Source of the DNA: Escherichia coli
Lineage (GTDB): Bacteria > Pseudomonadota > Gammaproteobacteria > Enterobacterales > Enterobacteriaceae
Strand: one strand, 5' to 3'
Assembly: GCF_003018235.1 (NCBI RefSeq)
Contig: NZ_CP027439.1
DNA: 64,000 nt
The notes beneath the pieces were generated by a model, which made no database searches, had not been told where the DNA came from, and saw only the letters and a program-made list of their open reading frames with translations. Position 1 is the stretch's first letter, and each line of letters opens with the position of its first letter. Position numbers and translations under genes: made by a program. Positions 7,260-60,709 of this stretch are shown piece by piece.

Positions 7260-8408
7260 CTACAATGCGAGTTTAAGGATTGTGGTTAACACATCCGGGG
7301 TGTAGGTCTCAGCCAGCCCGAACCAGCGGGTATTCCCTTCCAGGTTTTCCAGGATACGGGGAAAGTCTGCCTCCGTTATTCCCAGTTGTGACAGACGAGT
7401 TGGGGTACCAATTTTATCAAACCATTTTTCAAGCGCCAGGATGCCTTGTTCAGCGGTTTTCAAACCGAACAGATGCTGCGCAAAACGCTCAAACTGAGAA
7501 GGATTCTGGCTGTGGTACCACTTCATCCATGCAGGCATTACAACGGATAACCCTGCACCATGGGGAACATTAAAGAGGGCTGACAGAGAATGCTCAATCA
7601 TGTGATTAGGGTAGCTGAATCCTGACGTTCCGGCATAGATCAGGCCATTAAGTGCCAGCGTTGCTGCCCATGCAAATTCCGCCCGGGCGTTGTAGTCGCC
7701 CGCATCTGCCAGCAACATTTCCGTCGTCTCCATGACCGTTGCGATAACCGATTCAACCAGACGTGACTGGATTTTCGGCTGCACCGCTGCTGTGAAATAA
7801 CCTTCAATGGAATGGGCGATAATGTCCGCTGCCGAATAGACAAGATAGTCCCGGGAGACCGTCTGCATCAGTGCCGGGTTCACAACGGAGACTTTCGGAA
7901 ACGTATGCACGGAATGCAGAGCAAATTTTTCCAGCGTGGCGTCATTGGTGACAACGGCACCACCGTTCATCTCACTGCCGGTCGCGGCAAGAGTCAGAAC
8001 AGAAAACACGGGTAAGGCAGCTTCGATTTGTCCTTTACCGATAAACAAATCCCAGACGTCGTTCTCATAAAGTGCGCCTGCCGCGACAGATTTCGCACTA
8101 TCCAGTACAGAACCGCCGCCCACGCTTAAAATGGCATCAACCTGGTGAGCACGCGCCAGCTGAATACCTTCTCTGACCTTAGAAATCAGCGGGTTGCTGA
8201 CTATCCCGCCAAACTCTACATACTGAATGCCGTGCTTTGTCAGGCTGTCGCTGATAGTGCTGAACAAACCATCTCGCTTGATGCGGTCACTGCCAAACGC
8301 CAGCAGAACTTTACTGACTTTCTGCTCTGCTAGGATCTGGCCGATCAGCTTTTCTTTGTCTGCACCAAATTCAATTCGGGTCGGGTTATAAAAACTGAAA
8401 TTATCCAT
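7260..8408 (-). CDS. Iron-containing alcohol dehydrogenase (YqhD/BdhA-like aldehyde reductase)
   Basis: 382 aa, N-terminus MDNFSFYNPTRIEFG typical of Fe-ADH family. Confidence 0.85.
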   Translation of the reverse strand: MDNFSFYNPTRIEFGADKEKLIGQILAEQKVSKVLLAFGSDRIKRDGLFSTISDSLTKHGIQYVEFGGIVSNPLISKVREGIQLARAHQVDAILSVGGGSVLDSAKSVAAGALYENDVWDLFIGKGQIEAALPVFSVLTLAATGSEMNGGAVVTNDATLEKFALHSVHTFPKVSVVNPALMQTVSRDYLVYSAADIIAHSIEGYFTAAVQPKIQSRLVESVIATVMETTEMLLADAGDYNARAEFAWAATLALNGLIYAGTSGFSYPNHMIEHSLSALFNVPHGAGLSVVMPAWMKWYHSQNPSQFERFAQHLFGLKTAEQGILALEKWFDKIGTPTRLSQLGITEADFPRILENLEGNTRWFGLAETYTPDVLTTILKLAL

Positions 8409-48318: not shown

Positions 48319-48625
48319 TATTAATGTTATTACAGCCCTCTCTGTGCCGGGTAAAACCGTGTCAGATGATTTTATTCATGCTGTTCTCAGTAACTGCGCC
48401 ACAAGAATCGTACTTCCTGCACCGGAGAAATTCGGTTCTGAGTCATTGCCGCACAATTTTAATATGGCTGCTGTCGGTGTGATGAAGAAGGGTATGTCGA
48501 TGAGCTTATTTTCTTCTCCGGGGCATATTGTGGTTGCCGGACAATCCGGTGACGGAAAATCTGTTCCGGTGAAAGAACTAATCGACAGAATTATTCAGAA
48601 ATATAAGGAACCCTTCGATGAATAA
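48305..48625 (+). CDS. trbD: Conjugal transfer protein TrbD (by position)
   Basis: 106-aa ORF between traP and trbG. Confidence 0.55.
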   Translation: MNMRNINVITALSVPGKTVSDDFIHAVLSNCATRIVLPAPEKFGSESLPHNFNMAAVGVMKKGMSMSLFSSPGHIVVAGQSGDGKSVPVKELIDRIIQKYKEPFDE

Positions 48626-48869
48626 GCTGGTTTCTGATGGCAGCGTCAAAAAAATAAATTATCCGGTGCTGTATGAGTCCGTAATAACACCTCCGTTATG
48701 TGAAGTCAGTGCACCAGAACCTGATGCGGGTGGGAAACGCATTGTGGCATATGTTTATAAATCATCACGGAATACGGTTTTTGAAAATCCTGACATTGTA
48801 AAAACCTGTACGGTCAGGGATTTGAAGAATGATTTTGTGAACTGCGATGAGAAAGGTGAGGGACAATGA
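48618..48869 (+). CDS. trbG: Conjugal transfer protein TrbG
   Basis: 83-aa ORF in F position. Confidence 0.65.
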   Translation: MNKLVSDGSVKKINYPVLYESVITPPLCEVSAPEPDAGGKRIVAYVYKSSRNTVFENPDIVKTCTVRDLKNDFVNCDEKGEGQ

Positions 48870-49381
48870 AACAGATTTCTTTATTTATTCCTCTGCTGGG
48901 GACCTTATTACTTTCCGGCTGTGCCGGAACCAGTACGGAATTTGAGTGTAACGCCACCACATCCGATACCTGTATGACGATGGAGCAGGCCAATGAGAAG
49001 GCCAAAAAACTGGAGCAGTCCTCAGAAGCAAAGCCGGTTGCGGCATCACTGCCGCGCCTGGCTGAAGGGAACTTCCGGACAATGCCGGTGCAGACCGTCA
49101 CCGCGACCACTCCGTCCGGCAGCGGGCCTGTAGTGACTGCACTTCCGGAGCAGAAACTGCTGGCACCACGCCCGCTGTTTACCGCTGCCCGGGAAGTGAA
49201 AACGGTTGTTCCGGTCAGCTCAGTTGCGCCGGTAACGCCTCCCCGTCCGTTAAGAACGGGTGAGCAGACGGCAGCATTATGGATAGCACCATATATTGAT
49301 AATCAGGATGTTTATCATCAGCCATCCAGTGTGTTTTTTGTTATTAAACCATCTGCGTGGGGAAAACCACGTATTAATTAA
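48866..49381 (+). CDS. traV: Outer-membrane lipoprotein TraV
   Basis: Lipobox LLLSGCAG; 171 aa; F order. Confidence 0.9.
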   Translation: MKQISLFIPLLGTLLLSGCAGTSTEFECNATTSDTCMTMEQANEKAKKLEQSSEAKPVAASLPRLAEGNFRTMPVQTVTATTPSGSGPVVTALPEQKLLAPRPLFTAAREVKTVVPVSSVAPVTPPRPLRTGEQTAALWIAPYIDNQDVYHQPSSVFFVIKPSAWGKPRIN

Positions 49382-49515
49382 CTGGCCCTGAAGTTGTATA
49401 TCAGCCGGCAATGCCGGCGGGCTTTCTGTATTCAAAATCTGCCTGTAAAACGAGTGCCCTGTGCGTGAAAAGGGATGGGCGGTAGCGTGTCAGAACATGT
49501 CGGGAGGAATATTCC

Positions 49516-49737
49516 GTGAGTGATGAAGCCGATGAAGCATATTCAGTGACAGAACAGATGACCATGACAGGAATAAACCGGATACGCCAGAAAATAAATG
49601 CTCATGGTATTCCTGTTTATCTCTGTGAAGCATGCGGTAATCCTATTCCGGAAGCCCGGCGGAAAATATTTCCCGGTGTGACGTTATGTGTTGAATGTCA
49701 GGCGGATCAGGAAAGGCAGAGGAAACACTATGCATAA
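49516..49737 (+). CDS. traR: TraR (DksA/TraR C4 zinc-finger family)
   Basis: 73 aa with CEACGNPIPEARRKIFPGVTLCVEC zinc finger. Confidence 0.9.
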   Translation: MSDEADEAYSVTEQMTMTGINRIRQKINAHGIPVYLCEACGNPIPEARRKIFPGVTLCVECQADQERQRKHYA

Positions 49738-50203
49738 ATCAGAAACTGAAAAAATAGATTCTATCCTGGATGAACATCAACAGATATATCGCAGACATAA
49801 CCGAATAGATAACATCCTGGCGTTTTTTGCGTGTATTGCATGGATTCCCTGTATTATTGCTGCGTTCGGCGTTGATGGTATATATCTGAAAATCCTGTTT
49901 GCGGTCCTTGCCTGCTGTGGTGCGGTATGCTTTTTTATTTTCTTCTTCACCCTCCTGCCGGAATCACTCATGGTCCTCAGCCGTCAGAGCCTGCTTCAGC
50001 TTATGCGTCTGACTGAAGACGTACCGGATGCGAGACAGGAACTGCTTAACCGTCTGCTGTCCGGTAAAAAACTGACTGGTCGGAATGAAAAGGATATCCG
50101 GCGTCTCTGGCAGGATAAAGTGGATGCAATGCAGGAGTCTGCCACCCGTCAGCGTGAACAGGATACCATTCGGAAGTTTGCTGAAGAGAGTAAATCTGAA
50201 TGA
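49730..50203 (+). CDS. Hypothetical membrane protein inserted between traR and traC
   Basis: 157 aa from MHKSETEKID; two predicted TM helices; no counterpart in canonical F order. Confidence 0.55.
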   Translation: MHKSETEKIDSILDEHQQIYRRHNRIDNILAFFACIAWIPCIIAAFGVDGIYLKILFAVLACCGAVCFFIFFFTLLPESLMVLSRQSLLQLMRLTEDVPDARQELLNRLLSGKKLTGRNEKDIRRLWQDKVDAMQESATRQREQDTIRKFAEESKSE

Positions 50204-50527
50204 AAATCTGCTGTGTTTTATAACCTCATAAGTTAACTGAAGGAATATTCAGTGATTAATATTTAACTGGAGGTAATAAAGAATGCATACCTTTATCTTT
50301 CTTGTGCTGATGAAAAATGTTGGCGGTGGTGGTATCTGGAATATTACACCCATGCCAAATACGGATGTATGTGCACAGATCCTTCGGAGAATAGAAGCGC
50401 GTGGAGGCAGGGCTTAGGAAATTCAGGGGAGTGTATTGAAGTTAAAACAAATGAACCTTTGAACAACGTGATGGAAACACTGAATGGTGATGGGCAATGA
50501 GTGCTTACTGCTTCGAAGGAAAATGAA

Positions 50528-50890
50528 ATGAAGTCGATATATTTAAAATCTGTTCTGGCTTTTATATTTGTTGGCGTTATGGCTATGTTGATATGTGGTC
50601 TTTTTTACAATGATTACCTTGAGCAACAACCTGCAACACCAGAACAACTGACAGAGATTACACAGGATATCCCCTGTGCAGCAGAAGCATTTAAGGAAGC
50701 TATTAAGTCTGACACATCTGATTATCAGCCTGAACCTTTAAGTCTTGGTAAGGCAAAAGAGCTTGCATCAGCGTGTAGAGAAAGAAACGAAATGGCAGAG
50801 GTGAAACGGGTAAGAGAAAATGAGCGCAATAAGATTCGCGAAAAACAAATTCAGGCATTAAATGATGCTCATTCAGTAAAGGAACGTTAA
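50528..50890 (+). CDS. Hypothetical protein with N-terminal TM/signal segment
   Basis: 120 aa from MKSIYLKSVLAFIFVGVMAMLICG; no counterpart in canonical F order. Confidence 0.5.
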   Translation: MKSIYLKSVLAFIFVGVMAMLICGLFYNDYLEQQPATPEQLTEITQDIPCAAEAFKEAIKSDTSDYQPEPLSLGKAKELASACRERNEMAEVKRVRENERNKIREKQIQALNDAHSVKER

Positions 50891-51015
50891 TCCTGGTTTC
50901 CTGTTAAAAGCCTCCATCTCTTATTTGTGCTGTGGTTTCAGGAATGGCACTGCGTGATATATCCACGGCCACAGACTGATATTTTCCTTTTTTAAACGCA
51001 CTAAGGAATACTCAT

Positions 51016-53646
51016 ATGAGTAATAACCCACTTGAGGCCGTCACTCAGGCGGTTAACTCCCTCGTCACAGCACTGAAACTGCCTGACGAATCAGCAAAGG
51101 CCAATGAAGTGCTGGGCGAAATGAGCTTCCCGCAGTTCAGCCGTCTGCTGCCGTACCGTGATTACAACCAGGAATCCGGTCTGTTCATGAATGACACCAC
51201 GATGGGCTTTATGCTGGAAGCCATTCCCATCAATGGGGCGAATGAGTCCATTGTGGAGGCCCTCGATCATATGCTGCGCACCAAACTGCCGCGCGGTATT
51301 CCGTTGTGTATCCATCTGATGTCCAGTCAGCTGGTTGGTGACAGGATTGAATACGGGCTGCGTGAGTTCTCCTGGTCTGGCGAACAGGCCGAACGGTTTA
51401 ACGCCATTACCCGTGCCTATTATATGAAAGCGGCAGCGACACAGTTTCCGCTGCCGGAGGGGATGAATCTGCCCCTGACCCTGCGCCATTACCGGGTGTT
51501 TATCTCGTACTGTTCTCCCTCGAAGAAAAAAAGCCGGGCTGACATTCTGGAAATGGAAAATCTGGTGAAAATCATCCGTGCCTCTTTTCACGGCGCAAAA
51601 ATCACCACACAGACAGTGGATGCACAGGCTTTCATCGAGATTGTCGGGGAGATGATTAACCATAATCCGGACTCTCTGTACCCGAAAAGACGTCAGCTGG
51701 ACCCGTATTCTGATCTGAATTATCAGTGTGTGGAGGACAGTTTTGATCTGAAGGTCCGGGCGGATTACCTGACGCTGGGGCTGCGTGAGAACGGCAGGAA
51801 CAGCACAGCCCGTATCCTGAATTTCCATCTGGCCCGTAACCCGGAAATCGCCTTCCTGTGGAACATGGCCGATAACTACAGCAATCTGCTGAACCCGGAA
51901 ATGTCCATTTCCTGCCCGTTCATCCTGACGCTGACACTGGTGGTGGAAGATCAGGTGAAAACCCACAGTGAAGCCAACCTGAAGTACATGGACCTGGAGA
52001 AAAAGTCGAAGACCTCCTATGCCAAATGGTTTCCGTCCGTGGAGAAAGAGGCGAAGGAGTGGGGGGAACTGCGCCAGCGGCTGGGCTCCGGTCAGTCTTC
52101 TGTCGTGTCCTACTTCCTTAACATCACAGCATTCTGCAAGGATAACAATGAAACGGCTCTGGAAGTGGAGCAGGACATTCTGAACAGCTTTCGTAAAAAC
52201 GGTTTTGAGCTGATTTCACCGCGCTTTAACCACATGCGCAATTTCCTGACCTGCCTGCCCTTTATGGCCGGGAAAGGGCTGTTTAAACAGCTGAAAGAGG
52301 CCGGTGTGGTTCAGCGCGCAGAGAGCTTTAATGTGGCCAACCTGATGCCGTTAGTGGCGGATAACCCCCTGACACCGGCAGGCCTGCTGGCACCCACCTA
52401 CCGTAACCAGCTGGCGTTTATCGATATCTTCTTTAAGGGGATGAATAACACCAACTACAACATGGCGGTCTGTGGCACCTCCGGGGCCGGTAAAACCGGG
52501 CTGATACAGCCACTTATCCGCAGCGTGCTGGACTCCGGGGGCTTTGCCGTGGTGTTCGACATGGGGGATGGCTACAAGTCTTTGTGTGAGAACATGGGGG
52601 GCGTATATCTGGACGGTGAAACCCTGCGCTTTAACCCGTTTGCGAACATCACTGATATTGACCAGTCAGCGGAGCGTGTCCGTGACCAGTTGTCGGTGAT
52701 GGCCAGCCCCAACGGTAACCTGGATGAAGTGCATGAAGGTCTGTTGCTGCAGGCGGTCAGAGCCTCCTGGCTGGCTAAAAAGAAGCAGGCGCGCATTGAT
52801 GATGTGGTGGATTTCCTGAAAAACGCCCGTGATAACGACCAGTATGTCGAGTCACCGACCATCCGCAGCCGTCTGGACGAAATGATTGTGCTGCTTGACC
52901 AGTACACTGCCAACGGCACTTACGGCCGGTATTTTAACTCTGATGAACCGTCCCTACGGGATGATGCCAGAATGGTGGTGCTGGAGCTGGGCGGACTGGA
53001 AGACCGTCCGTCACTGCTGGTTGCGGTGATGTTCAGCCTTATCATTTACATCGAGAACCGGATGTACCGCACGCCGCGTAACCTCAAGAAACTGAACGTC
53101 ATTGATGAAGGCTGGCGTCTGCTGGACTTCAAAAATCGTAAAGTTGGTGAGTTTATTCAAAAAGGTTACCGCACCTGTCGCCGTCATACCGGTGCCTATA
53201 TCACCATCACACAGAACATCGTCGACTTTGACTCTGACAAGGCATCCAGCGCAGCCCGTGCGGCATGGGGTAACTCCTCCTACAAAATTATCCTCAAACA
53301 GAGTGCGAAGGAGTTCGCGAAATATAACCAGTTATTCCCGGATCAGTTCCAGCCACTGCAGCGCGACATGATTGGTAAGTTTGGTGCGGCCAAAGACCAG
53401 TGGTTCAGTTCCTTCCTGCTGCAGGTGGAAAACCATTCCTCCTGGCACCGTCTGTTTGTGGACCCGTTAAGCCGTGCCATGTACAGCTCTGACGGCCCGG
53501 ATTTTGAGTTTGTGCAGCAGAAACGCAGAGAGGGTATGAGTATTCATGAGGCGGTGTGGCAGCTGGCGTGGAAGAAATCGGGGCCGGAGATGGCTTCGCT
53601 GGAGGCCTGGCTGGAAGAACATGAGAAATACAGGAGTGTTGCATGA
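51016..53646 (+). CDS. traC: T4SS ATPase TraC (VirB4-like)
   Basis: 876 aa; Walker A GTSGAGKTG. Confidence 0.95.
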   Translation: MSNNPLEAVTQAVNSLVTALKLPDESAKANEVLGEMSFPQFSRLLPYRDYNQESGLFMNDTTMGFMLEAIPINGANESIVEALDHMLRTKLPRGIPLCIHLMSSQLVGDRIEYGLREFSWSGEQAERFNAITRAYYMKAAATQFPLPEGMNLPLTLRHYRVFISYCSPSKKKSRADILEMENLVKIIRASFHGAKITTQTVDAQAFIEIVGEMINHNPDSLYPKRRQLDPYSDLNYQCVEDSFDLKVRADYLTLGLRENGRNSTARILNFHLARNPEIAFLWNMADNYSNLLNPEMSISCPFILTLTLVVEDQVKTHSEANLKYMDLEKKSKTSYAKWFPSVEKEAKEWGELRQRLGSGQSSVVSYFLNITAFCKDNNETALEVEQDILNSFRKNGFELISPRFNHMRNFLTCLPFMAGKGLFKQLKEAGVVQRAESFNVANLMPLVADNPLTPAGLLAPTYRNQLAFIDIFFKGMNNTNYNMAVCGTSGAGKTGLIQPLIRSVLDSGGFAVVFDMGDGYKSLCENMGGVYLDGETLRFNPFANITDIDQSAERVRDQLSVMASPNGNLDEVHEGLLLQAVRASWLAKKKQARIDDVVDFLKNARDNDQYVESPTIRSRLDEMIVLLDQYTANGTYGRYFNSDEPSLRDDARMVVLELGGLEDRPSLLVAVMFSLIIYIENRMYRTPRNLKKLNVIDEGWRLLDFKNRKVGEFIQKGYRTCRRHTGAYITITQNIVDFDSDKASSAARAAWGNSSYKIILKQSAKEFAKYNQLFPDQFQPLQRDMIGKFGAAKDQWFSSFLLQVENHSSWHRLFVDPLSRAMYSSDGPDFEFVQQKRREGMSIHEAVWQLAWKKSGPEMASLEAWLEEHEKYRSVA

Positions 53647-54029: not shown

Positions 54030-54658
54030 GATGCCGGGGGCTGATTGCCCTGCTGATATGGGGGCAGAGTGTGGCCGCAGCCGATCTTGGCACCTGGGGC
54101 GATCTGTGGCCGGTGCAGGAGCCGGACATGCTGACGGTGATCATGCAGCGCCTGACGGCACTGGAGCAGTCCGGTGAGATGGGCCGGAAAATGGATGCCT
54201 TTAAGGAGCGGGTGATCCGCAACAGCCTGCGGCCCCCTGCCGTTCCCGGAATCGGACGCACGGAAAAATACAGCAGCCGGTTGTTTGACCCGTCCGTCAG
54301 ACTGGCTGCGGATATCCGGGATAACGAAGGGCGGGTGTTTGCCCGTCAGGGAGAAGTGATGAATCCGCTGCAGTATGTCCCTTTTAACCAGACGCTGTAT
54401 TTCATCAATGGCGATGATCCGGCGCAGGTGACCTGGATGAAACGCCAGACGCCGCCCACACTGGAGAGCAAAATTATCCTCGTGCAGGGCAGTATCCCGG
54501 AGATGCAGAAGTCTCTGGACAGCCGTGTTTACTTTGACCAGAACGGTGTGCTCTGCCAGCGCCTCGGCATTGATCAGGTCCCGGCACGGGTGAGCGCCGT
54601 TCCCGGCGATCGCTTCCTGAAGGTGGAATTTATTCCGGCAGAGGAGGGCAGAAAATGA
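54026..54658 (+). CDS. traW: Pilus assembly protein TraW
   Basis: Start MRCRGLIALLIWGQSVAA (signal peptide); F order. Confidence 0.85.
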   Translation: MRCRGLIALLIWGQSVAAADLGTWGDLWPVQEPDMLTVIMQRLTALEQSGEMGRKMDAFKERVIRNSLRPPAVPGIGRTEKYSSRLFDPSVRLAADIRDNEGRVFARQGEVMNPLQYVPFNQTLYFINGDDPAQVTWMKRQTPPTLESKIILVQGSIPEMQKSLDSRVYFDQNGVLCQRLGIDQVPARVSAVPGDRFLKVEFIPAEEGRK

Positions 54659-55647
54659 AGCGAAGCCTGTGGCTGCTGATGTTATTCCTTCTCGCCGGTC
54701 ATGTCCCTGCAGCGTCTGCGGATTCTGCCTGTGAGGGGCGTTTTGTAAACCCGATCACGGATATCTGCTGGAGCTGTATTTTCCCGCTCTCGCTGGGCAG
54801 TATCAAAGTCAGTCAGGGTAAGGTCCCCGACACAGCGAACCCGTCGATGCCCATTCAGATTTGTCCGGCACCGCCGCCGCTGTTCAGGCGTATCGGGCTG
54901 GCCATTGGTTACTGGGAGCCGATGGCGCTGACGGACGTCACCCGATCACCGGGATGCATGGTTAACCTGGGCTTCAGCCTGCCGGCTTTTGGTAAAACGG
55001 CACAGGGAACGGCGAAAAAGGATGAGAAGCAGGTGAACGGGGCGTTCTATCACGTTCACTGGTACAAATACCCGCTGACGTACTGGCTTAACATCATCAC
55101 ATCGCTGGGCTGTCTGGAAGGTGGTGACCTGGATATCGCTTATCTTTCTGAAATCGACCCCACCTGGACGGACAGCAGCCTGACCACCATTCTCAATCCG
55201 GAAGCTGTCATCTTTGCCAATCCGATAGCACAGGGGGCCTGTGCAGCAGATGCCATTGCCAGCGCCTTTAATATGCCTCTCGATGTTCTGTTCTGGTGTG
55301 CCGGTTCGCAGGGCAGTATGTACCCGTTCAATGGCTGGGTGAGTAATGAGTCCAGTCCGTTGCAGTCCTCCCTGCTGGTCAGTGAACGCATGGCGTTCAA
55401 GCTGCACCGTCAGGGCATGATTATGGAAACCATCGGGAAAAATAACGCCGTCTGTAATGAATATCCGTCCCCAATCCTGCCCAAAGAACGCTGGCGTTAC
55501 CAGATGGTGAATATGTACCCGGACAGCGGACAGTGCCACCCGTTCGGGCGCAGTGTGACCCGCTGGGAAACCGGGAAAAATCCGCCCAATACAAAGAAAA
55601 ACTTCGGCTACCTGATGTGGCGTAAACGTAACTGTGTCTTCCTGTGA
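54655..55647 (+). CDS. traU: Conjugal transfer protein TraU
   Basis: 330 aa with signal peptide; F order. Confidence 0.9.
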   Translation: MKRSLWLLMLFLLAGHVPAASADSACEGRFVNPITDICWSCIFPLSLGSIKVSQGKVPDTANPSMPIQICPAPPPLFRRIGLAIGYWEPMALTDVTRSPGCMVNLGFSLPAFGKTAQGTAKKDEKQVNGAFYHVHWYKYPLTYWLNIITSLGCLEGGDLDIAYLSEIDPTWTDSSLTTILNPEAVIFANPIAQGACAADAIASAFNMPLDVLFWCAGSQGSMYPFNGWVSNESSPLQSSLLVSERMAFKLHRQGMIMETIGKNNAVCNEYPSPILPKERWRYQMVNMYPDSGQCHPFGRSVTRWETGKNPPNTKKNFGYLMWRKRNCVFL

Positions 55648-55652
55648 GGTGA

Positions 55653-56294
55653 ATGATGAAGCTGAGTATGAAATCTCTGGCAGCACTGCTGATGATGCTG
55701 AACGGGGCGGTTATGGCGTCAGAAAACGTGAACACTCCTGAAAACCGCCAGTTCCTGAAGCAGCAGGAAAATTTAAGCAGACAACTGCGTGAAAAACCTG
55801 ACCATCAGCTGAAAGCCTGGGCGGAGAAGCAGGTGCTGGAAAACCCCCTTCAGCGTTCAGATAACCATTTCCTGGATGAGCTGGTTCGTAAACAGCAGGC
55901 TTCGCAGGACGGGAAACCCCGGCAGGGTGCTCTGTATTTTGTGTCGTTTTCCATTCCCGAAGAGGGGCTGAAACGAATGCTGGGCGAAACCCGGCACTAC
56001 GGTATACCCGCCACACTGCGGGGCATGGTGAACAATGACCTGAAGACCACCGCTGAAGCCGTGCTGTCCCTGGTGAAAGACGGCGCGACTGATGGTGTTC
56101 AGATCGACCCGACGCTGTTTTCACAGTATGGCATTCGCAGTGTACCGGCACTGGTGGTGTTCTGCAGTCAGGGATACGACATCATCCGGGGAAACCTGCG
56201 GGTCGGCCAGGCGCTGGAGAAAGTGGCCGCCACGGGTGACTGCTGGCAGGTGGCTCATGATTTACTGGCAGGGAAAGGAGATTCCGGGAAATGA
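55653..56294 (+). CDS. trbC: Pilus assembly protein TrbC
   Basis: 213 aa with signal peptide; F order. Confidence 0.85.
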   Translation: MMKLSMKSLAALLMMLNGAVMASENVNTPENRQFLKQQENLSRQLREKPDHQLKAWAEKQVLENPLQRSDNHFLDELVRKQQASQDGKPRQGALYFVSFSIPEEGLKRMLGETRHYGIPATLRGMVNNDLKTTAEAVLSLVKDGATDGVQIDPTLFSQYGIRSVPALVVFCSQGYDIIRGNLRVGQALEKVAATGDCWQVAHDLLAGKGDSGK

Positions 56295-59134: not shown

Positions 59135-59482
59135 ATGAGTGAAGATTATTTGAAAATGTTTACAGGTGTTTTTCTGTTAATATTTGTCATTATTGCCGGT
59201 TATTTCTTTTCTGAGCGTAATGACAGGAAAATGTTTCTCCTGAGCTCACTGGTTTTCCTTGTTATTAATATCGCGTGTTTATATGTGCTTACCGCCAGTC
59301 TCTGGTTTCTGTGTGGTGCAATTATGAATCAGGGCGCAGCAATGGTTGTTCCAATGGTTATTGGCTCATTACCGGACGTTACGAGCTTCGACAGGTTCAG
59401 AAGAATATTTGTCTGTATTATGTTGTCATCAGTATGGTCCGGAATGATGTGGTTTTTTATAAGGGGGCTTATGACAGGCTAA
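59135..59482 (+). CDS. trbA: Conjugal transfer protein TrbA
   Basis: 115-aa polytopic membrane protein in F position. Confidence 0.75.
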   Translation: MSEDYLKMFTGVFLLIFVIIAGYFFSERNDRKMFLLSSLVFLVINIACLYVLTASLWFLCGAIMNQGAAMVVPMVIGSLPDVTSFDRFRRIFVCIMLSSVWSGMMWFFIRGLMTG

Positions 59483-59600
59483 GTCATATAAAACGGTAAT
59501 AAAAACCATACAAAATAATGAGGTTGAACTGATTAATATCACACAAACGCGAATATTACAGACATAAATACTCTCATGTAAATAATAACCGGAGTTTAAC

Positions 59601-59885
59601 ATGATAAGTAAACGCAGATTCTCTTTACCCCGGCTTGATATTACGGGAATGTGGGTATTTTCCCTGGGTGTCTGGTTTCATATCGTCGCCCGTCTTGTTT
59701 ACAGCAAACCCTGGATGGCTTTTTTTCTGGCGGAGCTGATTGCGGCCATCCTTGTGCTGTTCGGCGCATACCAGGTGCTGGATGCATGGATTGCCCGTGT
59801 CAGCCGGGAAGAGCGTGAGGCACTGGAAGCCAGGCAACAGGCCATGATGGAAGGGCAGCAGGAGGGCAGACATGTCTCTCATTAA
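59601..59885 (+). CDS. traQ: Pilin chaperone TraQ
   Basis: 94-aa membrane protein; F order. Confidence 0.8.
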   Translation: MISKRRFSLPRLDITGMWVFSLGVWFHIVARLVYSKPWMAFFLAELIAAILVLFGAYQVLDAWIARVSREEREALEARQQAMMEGQQEGRHVSH

Positions 59886-60417
59886 ATCACTGTTGTTCAC
59901 CCTGTTGCTGGCATCCGCTGCCGTGCAGGCCTCCACCCGGGATGAAATTGAACGACTCTGGAATCTGCAGGGCATGGCCGCGCAGCCTGCACAACCGGCA
60001 GCAGGCACGTCAGCCAGGACAGAAAAGCCAGCCCCCCGCTGGTTCCGCCTCAGCAACGGCAGGCAGGTTAACCTGGCCGACTGGAAGGTGGTGCTGTTTA
60101 TGCAGGGGCATTGCCCTTACTGTCACCAGTTTGACCCGGTACTGAAACAGCTGGCACAGCAGTACGGCTTTTCCGTTTTTCCCTACACCCTGGATGGTCA
60201 GGGGGATACCGCCTTTCCGGAGGCATTGCCGGTGCCACCGGACGTGATGCAGACCTTCTTCCCGAATATCCCGGTGGCCACACCGACTACCTTCCTGGTC
60301 AACGTCAACACGCTTGAGGCATTACCGCTTTTACAGGGGGCAACGGATGTTGCCGGTTTTATGGCGCGGATGGATACCGTTCTGCAGATGTACGGAGGGA
60401 AAAAAGGTGCGAAATAA
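59872..60417 (+). CDS. trbB: Thiol:disulfide interchange protein TrbB
   Basis: Signal peptide plus CPYC thioredoxin motif. Confidence 0.9.
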   Translation: MSLIKSLLFTLLLASAAVQASTRDEIERLWNLQGMAAQPAQPAAGTSARTEKPAPRWFRLSNGRQVNLADWKVVLFMQGHCPYCHQFDPVLKQLAQQYGFSVFPYTLDGQGDTAFPEALPVPPDVMQTFFPNIPVATPTTFLVNVNTLEALPLLQGATDVAGFMARMDTVLQMYGGKKGAK

Positions 60418-60709
60418 GCAGGTGGTGTTACTCATTGCCGGAATATCCGGCATCGCGACGGGAATAATCGTCAGCCTGAATATCCCCTTTATCCATCAGG
60501 GGCTTTTTTATCCCGCCAGCCCTGTAGAAATTGTCGTTTCGCTGTGCCTTACCTTTTCTGTTTCTGTTGTGTTTTTTGTGGGGGCAATTGTGGGATGGAT
60601 TTCGGTGTCTGAAATATATTACAGCCGCAGGACTGGACGGAAATATCGGGATATTCCTGCTGAAATGTCGTATGCGCCGGGAGAACACATTAAGGGAGGG
60701 CAAGAATGA
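60407..60709 (+). CDS. trbJ: Conjugal transfer protein TrbJ (GTG start)
   Basis: GTG at 60407 after GGAGGG RBS; ~100-aa membrane protein; F order. Confidence 0.6.
   Translation: MRNKQVVLLIAGISGIATGIIVSLNIPFIHQGLFYPASPVEIVVSLCLTFSVSVVFFVGAIVGWISVSEIYYSRRTGRKYRDIPAEMSYAPGEHIKGGQE

What the first reader, a model, noticed from the sequence alone, without database searches (positions are those of the whole stretch)
49730..50890. Two membrane-protein ORFs inserted between traR and traC
In the canonical F order traR is followed directly by traC. Here a 157-aa protein with two predicted TM helices and a 120-aa protein with an N-terminal TM or signal segment sit in a ~1.3-kb insert, with ~300 bp of non-coding DNA between them. 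They could be exclusion, host-range or anti-defence factors. Separately, trbJ abuts traH with no trbF between them.
Basis: partly seen in the sequence, partly recalled or inferred. Interest (0 to 1): 0.4.

Follow-up and report, generated by a model that had tools for sequence, protein, structure and literature searches.

The report
Known R100-type yfiA–yfiC tra-operon genes
The two small membrane-protein genes between traR and traC are the long-annotated, functionally uncharacterised yfiA and yfiC genes of R100-type F-like plasmids, with a broken yfiB between them. About a third of traR-carrying plasmids have this block, and plasmid F lacks it because of a deletion, so the finding is ordinary.

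Summary
traR (49516-49737) is followed by a 157-aa two-TM ORF (49730-50203), a 324-bp gap, a 120-aa N-terminal-TM ORF (50528-50890), then traC (51016).

The interpretation as an insert does not hold.
- These are yfiA and yfiC of plasmid R100.
- The gap is a frameshifted copy of R100's 72-aa yfiB.
- In PLSDB, 1298 plasmids carry this block, 2243 carry the F-type short spacer, and 3777 carry traR.
- The F spacer keeps a 34-codon relic of a yfiA-type gene, so F is the deletion derivative.

Coding status:
- yfiB is strongly constrained (ω about 0.15).
- yfiA and yfiC are weakly constrained (ω 0.3-0.85).
- The yfiA TM hairpin shows no detectable constraint (ω about 1.3).

No Pfam, NCBIfam, PADLOC, PHROG, PDB-sequence or Foldseek match gives a function.

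YfiA relatives also sit next to fopA in IncI plasmids and upstream of VirB1-VirB4 in P-type T4SS plasmids. YfiB and YfiC relatives occur in more than 3400 F-like plasmids, including Klebsiella ones.

The most likely role is dispensable donor-envelope accessory proteins co-expressed with the T4SS. Nothing supports exclusion or anti-defence.

The trbF claim is true: a 346-bp deletion fuses trbJ to the trbF 3' end.

Already known; low interest.

The parts
49516..49737 (+). traR (73 aa, DksA/TraR zinc-finger RNAP-binding protein), the upstream neighbour; its stop overlaps the yfiA start
   Evidence: NCBIfam PRK13715 TraR, E=3e-52; Pfam zf-dskA_traR
Predicted N-in/C-in two-TM hairpin inner-membrane protein with a conserved N-terminal helix and a three-helix cytoplasmic C-terminal domain carrying the motif RLLSGKxLTGRDE
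   Evidence: ORF. A 96%-identical homologue is annotated yfiA in pMTY1886. It matches the R100 157-aa ORF. Family alignment A4. AF2 pLDDT 79. dN/dS 0.3-0.4 in the C-terminal domain and 1.2-1.4 in the TM hairpin.
50283..50500 (+). yfiB pseudogene. Homologue of the R100 72-aa ORF, broken by loss of one G in the run at 50410-50412, which creates a premature TAG at 50415-50417
   Evidence: Alignments with R100, pMTY1886, pCFSAN012622, LR882059 and p2050-1. Adding one G restores 72 codons. Intact yfiB has dN/dS about 0.15 and occurs in 3602 plasmids.
Bitopic inner-membrane protein, N-in/C-out by charge distribution, with an approximately 85-aa helical periplasmic domain and two near-invariant Cys (C50 invariant, C83 in at least 90% of aligned sequences)
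   Evidence: ORF. A 98%-identical cluster is named 'YfiC protein' by UniRef. Alignments A5 and A6 with Klebsiella homologues. AF2 pLDDT 84.
50891..51015 (+). Spacer holding the traC ribosome-binding site. Identical in R100 and near-identical in pMTY1886 (one mismatch just upstream of the traC ATG). Its 3' end is shared with the F spacer
   Evidence: Alignments. pEntH10407 matches only window 50923-50990 (H70).
51016..53646 (+). traC (876 aa, VirB4-type ATPase), the downstream neighbour
   Evidence: ORF; annotated traC in all matching plasmids
60347..60709 (+). trbJ fused in frame to the last ~20 codons of trbF after a 346-bp deletion (junction at about 60642); trbF is otherwise absent; the ORF overlaps the traH start at 60706
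   Evidence: NCBIfam TrbJ, E=1e-71. Alignment with F and R100. The same junction is found as a single piece in NC_006671 and others.

Best explanation
The interval is the R100-type version of the traR-traC region of F-like plasmids: yfiA, a frameshifted yfiB, and yfiC. These are old members of the tra operon. The short F spacer is a deletion derivative that still carries the 5' relic of a yfiA/yfhA-type gene.

The genes have no promoter or terminator of their own, so they are presumably transcribed with the pilus-assembly genes from the tra operon promoter PY. yfiA is translationally coupled to traR through the ATGCATAA overlap. yfiC has its own Shine-Dalgarno sequence.

Predicted anatomy:
- YfiA inserts into the inner membrane as an N-in/C-in hairpin. 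Its conserved N-terminal helix and three-helix C-terminal module face the cytoplasm.
- YfiC is an N-in/C-out anchor with a helical periplasmic domain, probably disulfide-bonded.
- YfiB, when intact, is a small two-Cys protein.

Most likely role: non-essential accessory proteins acting in the donor envelope. They would fine-tune assembly or activity of the T4SS and pilus, or buffer the envelope stress it causes, as the other small dispensable Tra/Trb membrane proteins are thought to do. YfiA probably contacts a generic or host component, because its relatives occur with three T4SS types. YfiB and YfiC are probably F-type specific.

Shown: identity, conservation, coding constraint, predicted topology, and the direction of the indel. 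Inferred: co-transcription, donor-side envelope function, dispensability, and any partner.
For: Identity:
- The region aligns with R100 and pMTY1886, where the ORF1 homologue is annotated yfiA.
- UniRef names the ORF2 cluster YfiC.
- pEntH10407 authors call the ORF after traR 'YfhA', homologous to R100 and absent from F (PMC2762410).

Frequency: block in 1298 plasmids, F-type spacer in 2243, traR in 3777.

F as the deleted form: the relic MHKSVAEHSDLIPDEHEWIFRKQ... matches p417H-90 YfhA.

Same position in diverged lineages:
- pSLT has a 155-aa homologue at 47% identity.
- Distant members P0232 and P0270 also follow traR.
- Klebsiella plasmids carry YfiB and YfiC homologues between traV and traC.

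Coding constraint: ω values.

Operon-internal: no promoter-like site, no terminator-like site on the coding (+) strand (one weak minus-strand match, fewer than expected from shuffles), and no Rfam hit above gathering score.

Topology and fold.

Dispensability:
- F-type plasmids lack the block. F's high transfer proficiency is established knowledge.
- yfiB is frameshifted here and carries a nonsense mutation in LR882059.
- No yfiC is annotated in p2050-1.

Stress context: TraR activates the sigma-E envelope stress regulon (Grace et al. 2015, as summarised in PMC8744291).
Against: - No experiment or homology assigns any function. All library and fold searches were negative.
- YfiA relatives occur away from T4SS genes: next to fopA and rep in IncI plasmids, and in other plasmid regions. 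YfiA therefore need not act on the T4SS at all.
- The strong constraint on yfiB (ω about 0.15 across more than 3600 plasmids) argues that at least that gene matters in nature, even though it is broken here.
- Dispensability is inferred from natural deletion variants, not from isogenic mutants.
- The frameshift could be a homopolymer sequencing error.
Confidence: 0.6

Rival explanations
1. One reading: a recently inserted accessory cassette encoding exclusion, host-range or anti-defence factors.
For: - The genes are absent from F. The interval varies between plasmids: an extra 222-aa ORF in pMyNCGM570, an unrelated 87-aa ORF in pSLT, and six ORFs in Klebsiella plasmids.
- The YfiA TM hairpin falls into divergent allele classes with ω about 1.2-1.4. 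This resembles specificity determinants such as TraS.
Against: - The F spacer holds a relic of the gene, so F is the deletion.
- There are no transposase genes, no repeats at the borders and no composition break. The flanks are continuous with R100.
- No PADLOC hit.
- Known plasmid anti-defence genes sit in the leading region and enter the recipient first, whereas this site is mid-operon (established knowledge).
- F-like exclusion genes traS and traT lie downstream of traG.
- ω about 1.3 on 52 non-synonymous versus 14 synonymous differences cannot be distinguished from relaxed constraint on a membrane anchor.
Confidence: 0.08
2. YfiA is a membrane-anchored partner of the adjacent regulator (TraR here). 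It would tether or modulate that regulator and so couple transcriptional reprogramming to the state of the envelope or T4SS.
For: - yfiA is translationally coupled to traR in every F-like example seen.
- Family members follow other RNAP- or RNA-binding regulators elsewhere: FopA/YafB (a FinO-domain protein) in IncI/B/O/K plasmids, and a NusG-like gene in P-type T4SS plasmids.
- Both conserved parts of YfiA face the cytoplasm.
Against: - The three regulators have unrelated folds, so one conserved domain is unlikely to bind them all.
- The adjacency is not universal (L017, L018 and L021).
- 2243 plasmids keep traR without yfiA.
Confidence: 0.1
3. The ORFs are decaying or non-functional remnants (junk ORFs) that are simply tolerated inside the operon.
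For: - High ω for yfiA (0.5-0.7 overall) and for yfiC within E. coli plasmids (0.5-0.85).
- Frequent truncations, fusions and deletions among database members.
- The whole block has been lost in F-type plasmids.
Against: - Full-length ORFs with conserved motifs persist across lineages whose synonymous sites are saturated. yfiC versus Klebsiella gives dS 1.5-2.0 and ω about 0.3. yfiA versus pSLT gives dS about 0.85 and ω about 0.5.
- Conserved start codons and Shine-Dalgarno sequences.
- Confident AF2 models.
- The YfiA family is retained in three plasmid backbones.
Confidence: 0.15

Closest known systems
R100 (NR1) tra-operon ORFs yfhA, yfiA, yfiB, yfiC between traR and traC
   Same: Same position, order and sequence. 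Across the shared traR-traC interval, the window, pMTY1886 and R100 are largely identical in the three-way alignment; most of the alignment's non-identical columns are R100's extra yfhA copy. Against the R100 copies, window yfiA has dN 0.034 and yfiC has dN 0.096. Same overlap with the traR stop and same spacer before traC.
   Different: The window has a single yfiA-type gene. R100 also carries the truncated upstream paralogue yfhA (137 aa, 61% identical), made by a tandem duplication that repeats the traR 3' end. yfiB is frameshifted in the window. Window YfiC has 5 extra residues in the periplasmic domain.
Small dispensable Tra/Trb membrane proteins of the F tra operon (TraP, TrbD, TrbG, TrbI, TrbE, TrbA, TrbJ, TrbF)
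   Same: Short inner-membrane or periplasmic proteins encoded inside the tra operon. They are variably present among F-like plasmids and are not needed for transfer in the laboratory (PMC5102898; established knowledge from F genetics).
   Different: No sequence similarity to any of them. No mutant phenotype has been reported for the yfi genes in the searched literature.
YafA of IncI1/IncB/O/K plasmids (R64, ColIb-P9, pESBL)
   Same: Homologue of YfiA at about 40% identity over 83-99% of its length. Same N-terminal motif, TM hairpin and RLLSGKxMTGRDE motif. Its function is also unknown (PMC7491321).
   Different: Encoded next to fopA (yafB) near the replicon rather than in a transfer operon. 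The plasmid uses an I-type T4SS. YafA has a longer C-terminal tail.
TraS/TraT entry and surface exclusion proteins of F-like plasmids
   Same: TraS is a small, highly variable inner-membrane protein. The YfiA TM hairpin is also highly variable.
   Different: Different locus (after traG) and no homology. YfiA's conserved parts are cytoplasmic. No exclusion test was done.

Membership tests
YfiA/YfhA/YafA family (uncharacterised plasmid membrane proteins) | Sequence homology over the full length to R100 YfiA/YfhA | tested here: met
   Against the R100 157-aa ORF, dN=0.034. 61% identity to R100 YfhA, E=8e-51. The profile search returns this family only, 113 representatives among 1.84 billion.
YfiA/YfhA/YafA family (uncharacterised plasmid membrane proteins) | Architecture: conserved N-terminal helix (M-x-x-S-x-x-E...I...H), two-TM hairpin, C-terminal LSRxxL...RLLSGKxLTGRDE module | tested here: met
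   Alignment A4 invariant columns; hydropathy; AF2 helices 5-47, 51-75, 85-97, 99-111, 117-156
YfiA/YfhA/YafA family (uncharacterised plasmid membrane proteins) | In F-like plasmids: start codon overlapping the traR stop | tested here: met
   ATGCATAA at 49730-49737; the same in R100, pMTY1886, pSLT, L014 and L016
YfiC family | N-terminal TM anchor followed by the motifs QPATPEQL, PCAxEAF, AS-x-C and REKQ-x-x-ALN, with two conserved Cys | tested here: met
   Alignments A5 and A6; a 98%-identical cluster is named YfiC by UniRef
YfiB family | Intact 71-72-aa reading frame with two Cys (C30, C51) | tested here: not met
   One-base deletion at 50410-12 truncates the frame at codon 44.
Essential F-type T4SS/pilus assembly components | Present in all transfer-proficient F-like plasmids, including F | tested here: not met
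   Absent from F and from 2243 plasmids with the F-type spacer
Anti-defence / defence proteins | Homology to known defence or anti-defence families, or a leading-region location | tested here: not met
   No significant PADLOC hit (best E=0.006 at 13.9 bits, over a TM segment). The locus is mid-operon, between traR and traC.
Entry exclusion (TraS-like) | Expression in recipients lowers transfer from cognate donors | not testable with these tools
   This needs a mating assay. There is no sequence similarity to annotated exclusion proteins in the Pfam, NCBIfam or PHROG scans.
   Only the last ~20 codons remain, fused to trbJ

The most novel reading that the evidence does not exclude
YfiA/YafA is a membrane factor of conjugative plasmids that works independently of T4SS type. 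It is found with F-, I- and P-type systems and usually sits directly behind an RNAP- or RNA-binding regulator (TraR, FopA, or a NusG-like ActX-type protein). It would link that regulator, or host envelope-stress signalling, to the membrane. Its fast-evolving TM hairpin would act as a specificity element.
Probability: 0.1. Interest if true: 0.45.

Novelty: already known. Interest (0 to 1): 0.15.

Why it matters
It matters little as a discovery. The arrangement has been in the R100 sequence for decades and is present in more than a thousand sequenced resistance and virulence plasmids.

It is still useful in three ways.
- It corrects the idea that F shows the 'canonical' order. F is a deletion variant with a recognisable relic.
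- It flags yfiB as a strongly constrained, unstudied gene (ω about 0.15, about 3600 plasmids).
- It shows that the YfiA family crosses three T4SS types.

These are cheap targets for deletion and mating or stress assays in clinically important IncF plasmids.

Tried and rejected
- **Family libraries.** Pfam, NCBIfam, PADLOC and PHROG scans of YfiA and YfiC gave only sub-threshold noise; YfiB was scanned against PADLOC and PHROGs only, with no hits.
- **Solved structures by sequence.** PDB profile searches with alignments A4 and A5 found nothing below E=0.1.
- **Fold searches.** Foldseek of both AF2 models against the PDB found nothing below E=1, only generic helical bundles. The afdb50 library was unavailable.
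- **Remote homology.** An exhaustive profile search with the YfiA alignment found 113 representatives, all of the same narrow family. It gave no bridge to a characterised family.
- **Regulatory and RNA elements.** Promoter, terminator and Rfam scans of 48800-51300 found nothing, so an embedded regulatory RNA or internal promoter was rejected.
- **Literature.** Searches for 'between traR and traC', yfhA, yfiB, yfiC and yafA found no functional study. Anthony et al. 1999 (PMC94017), the R100-1 versus F comparison, is not held.
- **IncX-like contexts.** tblastn of the distant member P0263 against PLSDB gave no match, so the Inc type of the P-type T4SS contexts could not be named.
- **Chance ORFs.** Rejected on conservation and dN/dS.
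- **Mobile-element insertion.** Rejected because the flanks are continuous with R100 and F retains a relic.

Full report
**Observation**

The window carries an F-like tra operon. traV ends at 49381 and traR occupies 49516-49737 (NCBIfam TraR, E=3e-52). traC starts at 51016. Between traR and traC:
- ORF1 runs from ATG 49730 to the stop at 50203 (157 aa).
- ORF2 runs from ATG 50528 to the stop at 50890 (120 aa).

The ORF1 ATG overlaps the traR stop (ATGCATAA) and is preceded by AGAGGAAA. ORF2 is preceded by AAGGA.

Hydropathy and AlphaFold2 give ORF1 a two-helix TM hairpin at residues ~28-75. This is flanked by a charged N-terminal helix and a three-helix C-terminal module (pLDDT 79). ORF2 has one N-terminal TM helix (residues 3-33) followed by a helical domain (pLDDT 84).

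**What the block is**

Megablast of the interval finds it in 1298 PLSDB plasmids, nearly all typed as conjugative IncF.
- In pMTY1886 the ORF1 homologue is annotated yfiA.
- UniRef names the ORF2 cluster 'YfiC protein'.
- R100 carries four ORFs at this site, of 137, 157, 72 and 115 aa.
- The pEntH10407 paper calls the first of these YfhA and notes that F has no counterpart (PMC2762410).

A three-way alignment of the window, pMTY1886 and R100 shows three things:
- (a) The window ORF1 corresponds to the R100 157-aa gene.
- (b) The R100 137-aa gene is an upstream paralogue (61% identical). It was created by a tandem duplication that repeats the traR 3' end, so it ends with the TraR C-terminus ...QRKHYA.
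- (c) The 324-bp 'non-coding' gap aligns with the R100 72-aa yfiB.

In the window, a GGGG run has become GGG at 50410-12, producing a TAG at 50415. Adding one G restores a 72-codon frame.

The frameshift is private to the window. The nearest relative, pCFSAN012622, is intact. LR882059 carries a nonsense codon in yfiB instead. The frameshift is either a recent inactivation or a homopolymer sequencing error.

**Direction of the difference from F**

The traR probe matches 3777 plasmids. Of these, 2243 carry the F-type 159-bp traR-traC spacer.

That spacer is not featureless. It begins with the same ATGCATAA overlap and reads MHKSVAEHSDLIPDEHEWIFRKQKSLYMRREMAR*. The first 17 of 17 residues, and 22 of the first 24, are identical to the yfhA-type gene of p417H-90. 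A 1-nt deletion follows, and then the sequence joins directly to the traC ribosome-binding site. F is therefore a deletion derivative, and the window shows the older state.

Other lineages agree:
- pSLT has a 155-aa homologue in the same overlapping position (47% identity, E=7e-41).
- The distant members P0232 and P0270 also follow traR.
- Klebsiella F-like plasmids carry YfiB (about 70% identical) and YfiC (about 39% identical) homologues among six small ORFs between traV and traC.

By tblastn, YfiA relatives occur in 2603 plasmids, YfiC relatives in 3472 and YfiB relatives in 3602.

**Are they real genes?**

Pairwise Nei-Gojobori estimates:

| Gene or region | ω |
|---|---|
| traV, traR | about 0.1-0.2 |
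| yfiB | about 0.15, with dS above 1 between E. coli and Klebsiella lineages |
| yfiC | 0.5-0.85 among close E. coli alleles; about 0.3 against Klebsiella |
| yfiA, whole gene | 0.5-0.7 |
| yfiA, N-terminus | about 0.35 |
| yfiA, cytoplasmic C-domain | 0.3-0.4 |
| yfiA, TM hairpin (yfiA-type vs yfhA-type alleles) | 1.2-1.4 |

The hairpin value rests on 52 non-synonymous and 14 synonymous differences. It is not distinguishable from relaxed constraint.

So all three are genuine coding genes. yfiA and yfiC are weakly constrained. yfiB, the gene that is broken here, is the most constrained.

**Function**

Every homology route was negative:
- Pfam, NCBIfam, PADLOC and PHROGs.
- PDB by sequence profile.
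- Foldseek against the PDB for both models.

An exhaustive profile search of 1.84 billion representatives found only 113 YfiA-family members.

The region has no sigma-70-like promoter. Its only terminator-like match is a weak minus-strand one, fewer than the shuffles give. No Rfam match reaches gathering score. This fits internal operon genes.

Genomic context adds one point of interest. YfiA relatives are not confined to F-type systems.
- YafA of IncI1/B/O/K plasmids (about 40% identical) lies directly after yafB (fopA), the FinO-domain RNA-binding protein (PMC7491321).
- More distant members lie between a NusG-like gene and SLT/VirB1-VirB3-VirB4 in plasmids with a Rep3-family replicase.
- Others sit in unrelated plasmid or ICE-like regions.

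YfiB and YfiC relatives were seen only in F-like operons.

**Interpretation**

The best reading is as follows. These are accessory envelope proteins, presumably co-expressed with the T4SS from the tra operon promoter.
- YfiA is coupled to TraR translation and exposes conserved helical modules to the cytoplasm.
- YfiC exposes a two-Cys helical domain to the periplasm.
- They modulate, but are not needed for, T4SS and pilus function or the envelope stress that TraR is known to anticipate (Grace et al. 2015, via PMC8744291).

Dispensability is inferred from the transfer-proficient F-type deletion and from independent gene inactivations. Identity and evolutionary direction are well supported. The mechanism is inference.

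The rivals are less likely:
- **Inserted exclusion or anti-defence cassette.** There is no mobile-element signature, F keeps a relic, PADLOC gives no hit, and the location is mid-operon.
- **Membrane partner of the adjacent regulator.** The adjacency to TraR, FopA and NusG-like genes is suggestive, but these regulators have unrelated folds and the adjacency is not universal.
- **Junk ORFs.** Conservation across lineages with saturated synonymous sites argues against it.

**Side claim**

trbF is indeed missing. Alignment with F and R100 shows a 346-bp deletion at about 60642. It fuses trbJ (NCBIfam E=1e-71) in frame to the last ~20 codons of trbF, giving ...RKYRDIPAEMSYAPGEHIKGGQE*. The same junction occurs as a single uninterrupted match in other plasmids, for example NC_006671.

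**Verdict**

This is an already known arrangement, the R100-type yfiA-yfiB-yfiC block, correctly spotted but wrongly read as an insertion. Interest is low.

Noticed in passing
window 50283-50500 (G-run at 50410-50412): yfiB is the most constrained gene of the interval (ω about 0.15; about 70% identical between R100 and Klebsiella plasmids; found in 3602 plasmids). It is frameshifted only in this window. The near relative LR882059 carries an independent nonsense codon, and pCFSAN012622 is intact. The frameshift may be a homopolymer sequencing error.
   Followed up: yes
window 60347-60709 (junction at about 60642): A 346-bp deletion makes an in-frame trbJ-'trbF fusion that ends 4 bp inside traH. 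The identical junction is present in other plasmids (e.g. NC_006671), so it is a circulating allele and not private damage.
   Followed up: partly
L003 (R100) 7699-8112; L022 (p417H-90) 1801-2214: The R100 and p417H-90 yfhA genes end with ...QRKHYA*, the C-terminus of TraR. The paralogue was created by a tandem duplication that repeats the traR 3' end and yfiA start. Some database proteins (e.g. P0056) look like recombinants between the yfhA-type and yfiA-type hairpins.
   Followed up: partly
L007 5001-5510; L008 4962-5495; L015 2811-3272; L019 5001-5492: The YfiA family also occurs as YafA directly downstream of fopA (yafB) in IncI1/B/O/K plasmids. It also lies between a NusG-like gene and VirB1/B3/B4 in Rep3-type plasmids with a P-type T4SS. 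In each case it follows a regulator that binds RNAP or RNA.
   Followed up: partly
protein P0175 (E. coli plasmids): P0175 is a chimera of the TraV lipoprotein signal peptide and N-terminus (MKQISLFIPLLGTLLLSGCAGTSTEFECNATTSD) joined to the YfiC periplasmic domain. This implies a deletion from traV into yfiC in some plasmids.
   Followed up: no
window 48618-48869, 54655-56294, 59482-59601: The tra operon is a mosaic of F-like and R100-like states. trbG is present, as in F and unlike R100. traU is followed directly by trbC, as in F, whereas R100 has a 101-aa ORF there. The trbA-traQ spacer is 118 bp with no artA, as in R100. The best PLSDB match to the 24-kb tra segment is only about 97% identical.
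   Followed up: partly
window 49404-49418: A perfect GC-rich palindrome, GCCGGCAATGCCGGC, followed by GGGCTTTCTGTATTC lies in the traV-traR intergenic region. It looks like a weak terminator or RNA-processing hairpin. The terminator scan did not call it.
   Followed up: no
L011 3075-3743; L013 2573-2938; L009 1339-3694: The interval is a hot spot for small ORFs. pMyNCGM570 has an extra 222-aa ORF between yfiC and traC. In p2050-1 no yfiC is annotated in the interval. Klebsiella pKpQIL-like plasmids have no traR annotated in the interval and carry six small, mostly multi-TM ORFs between traV and traC.
   Followed up: partly
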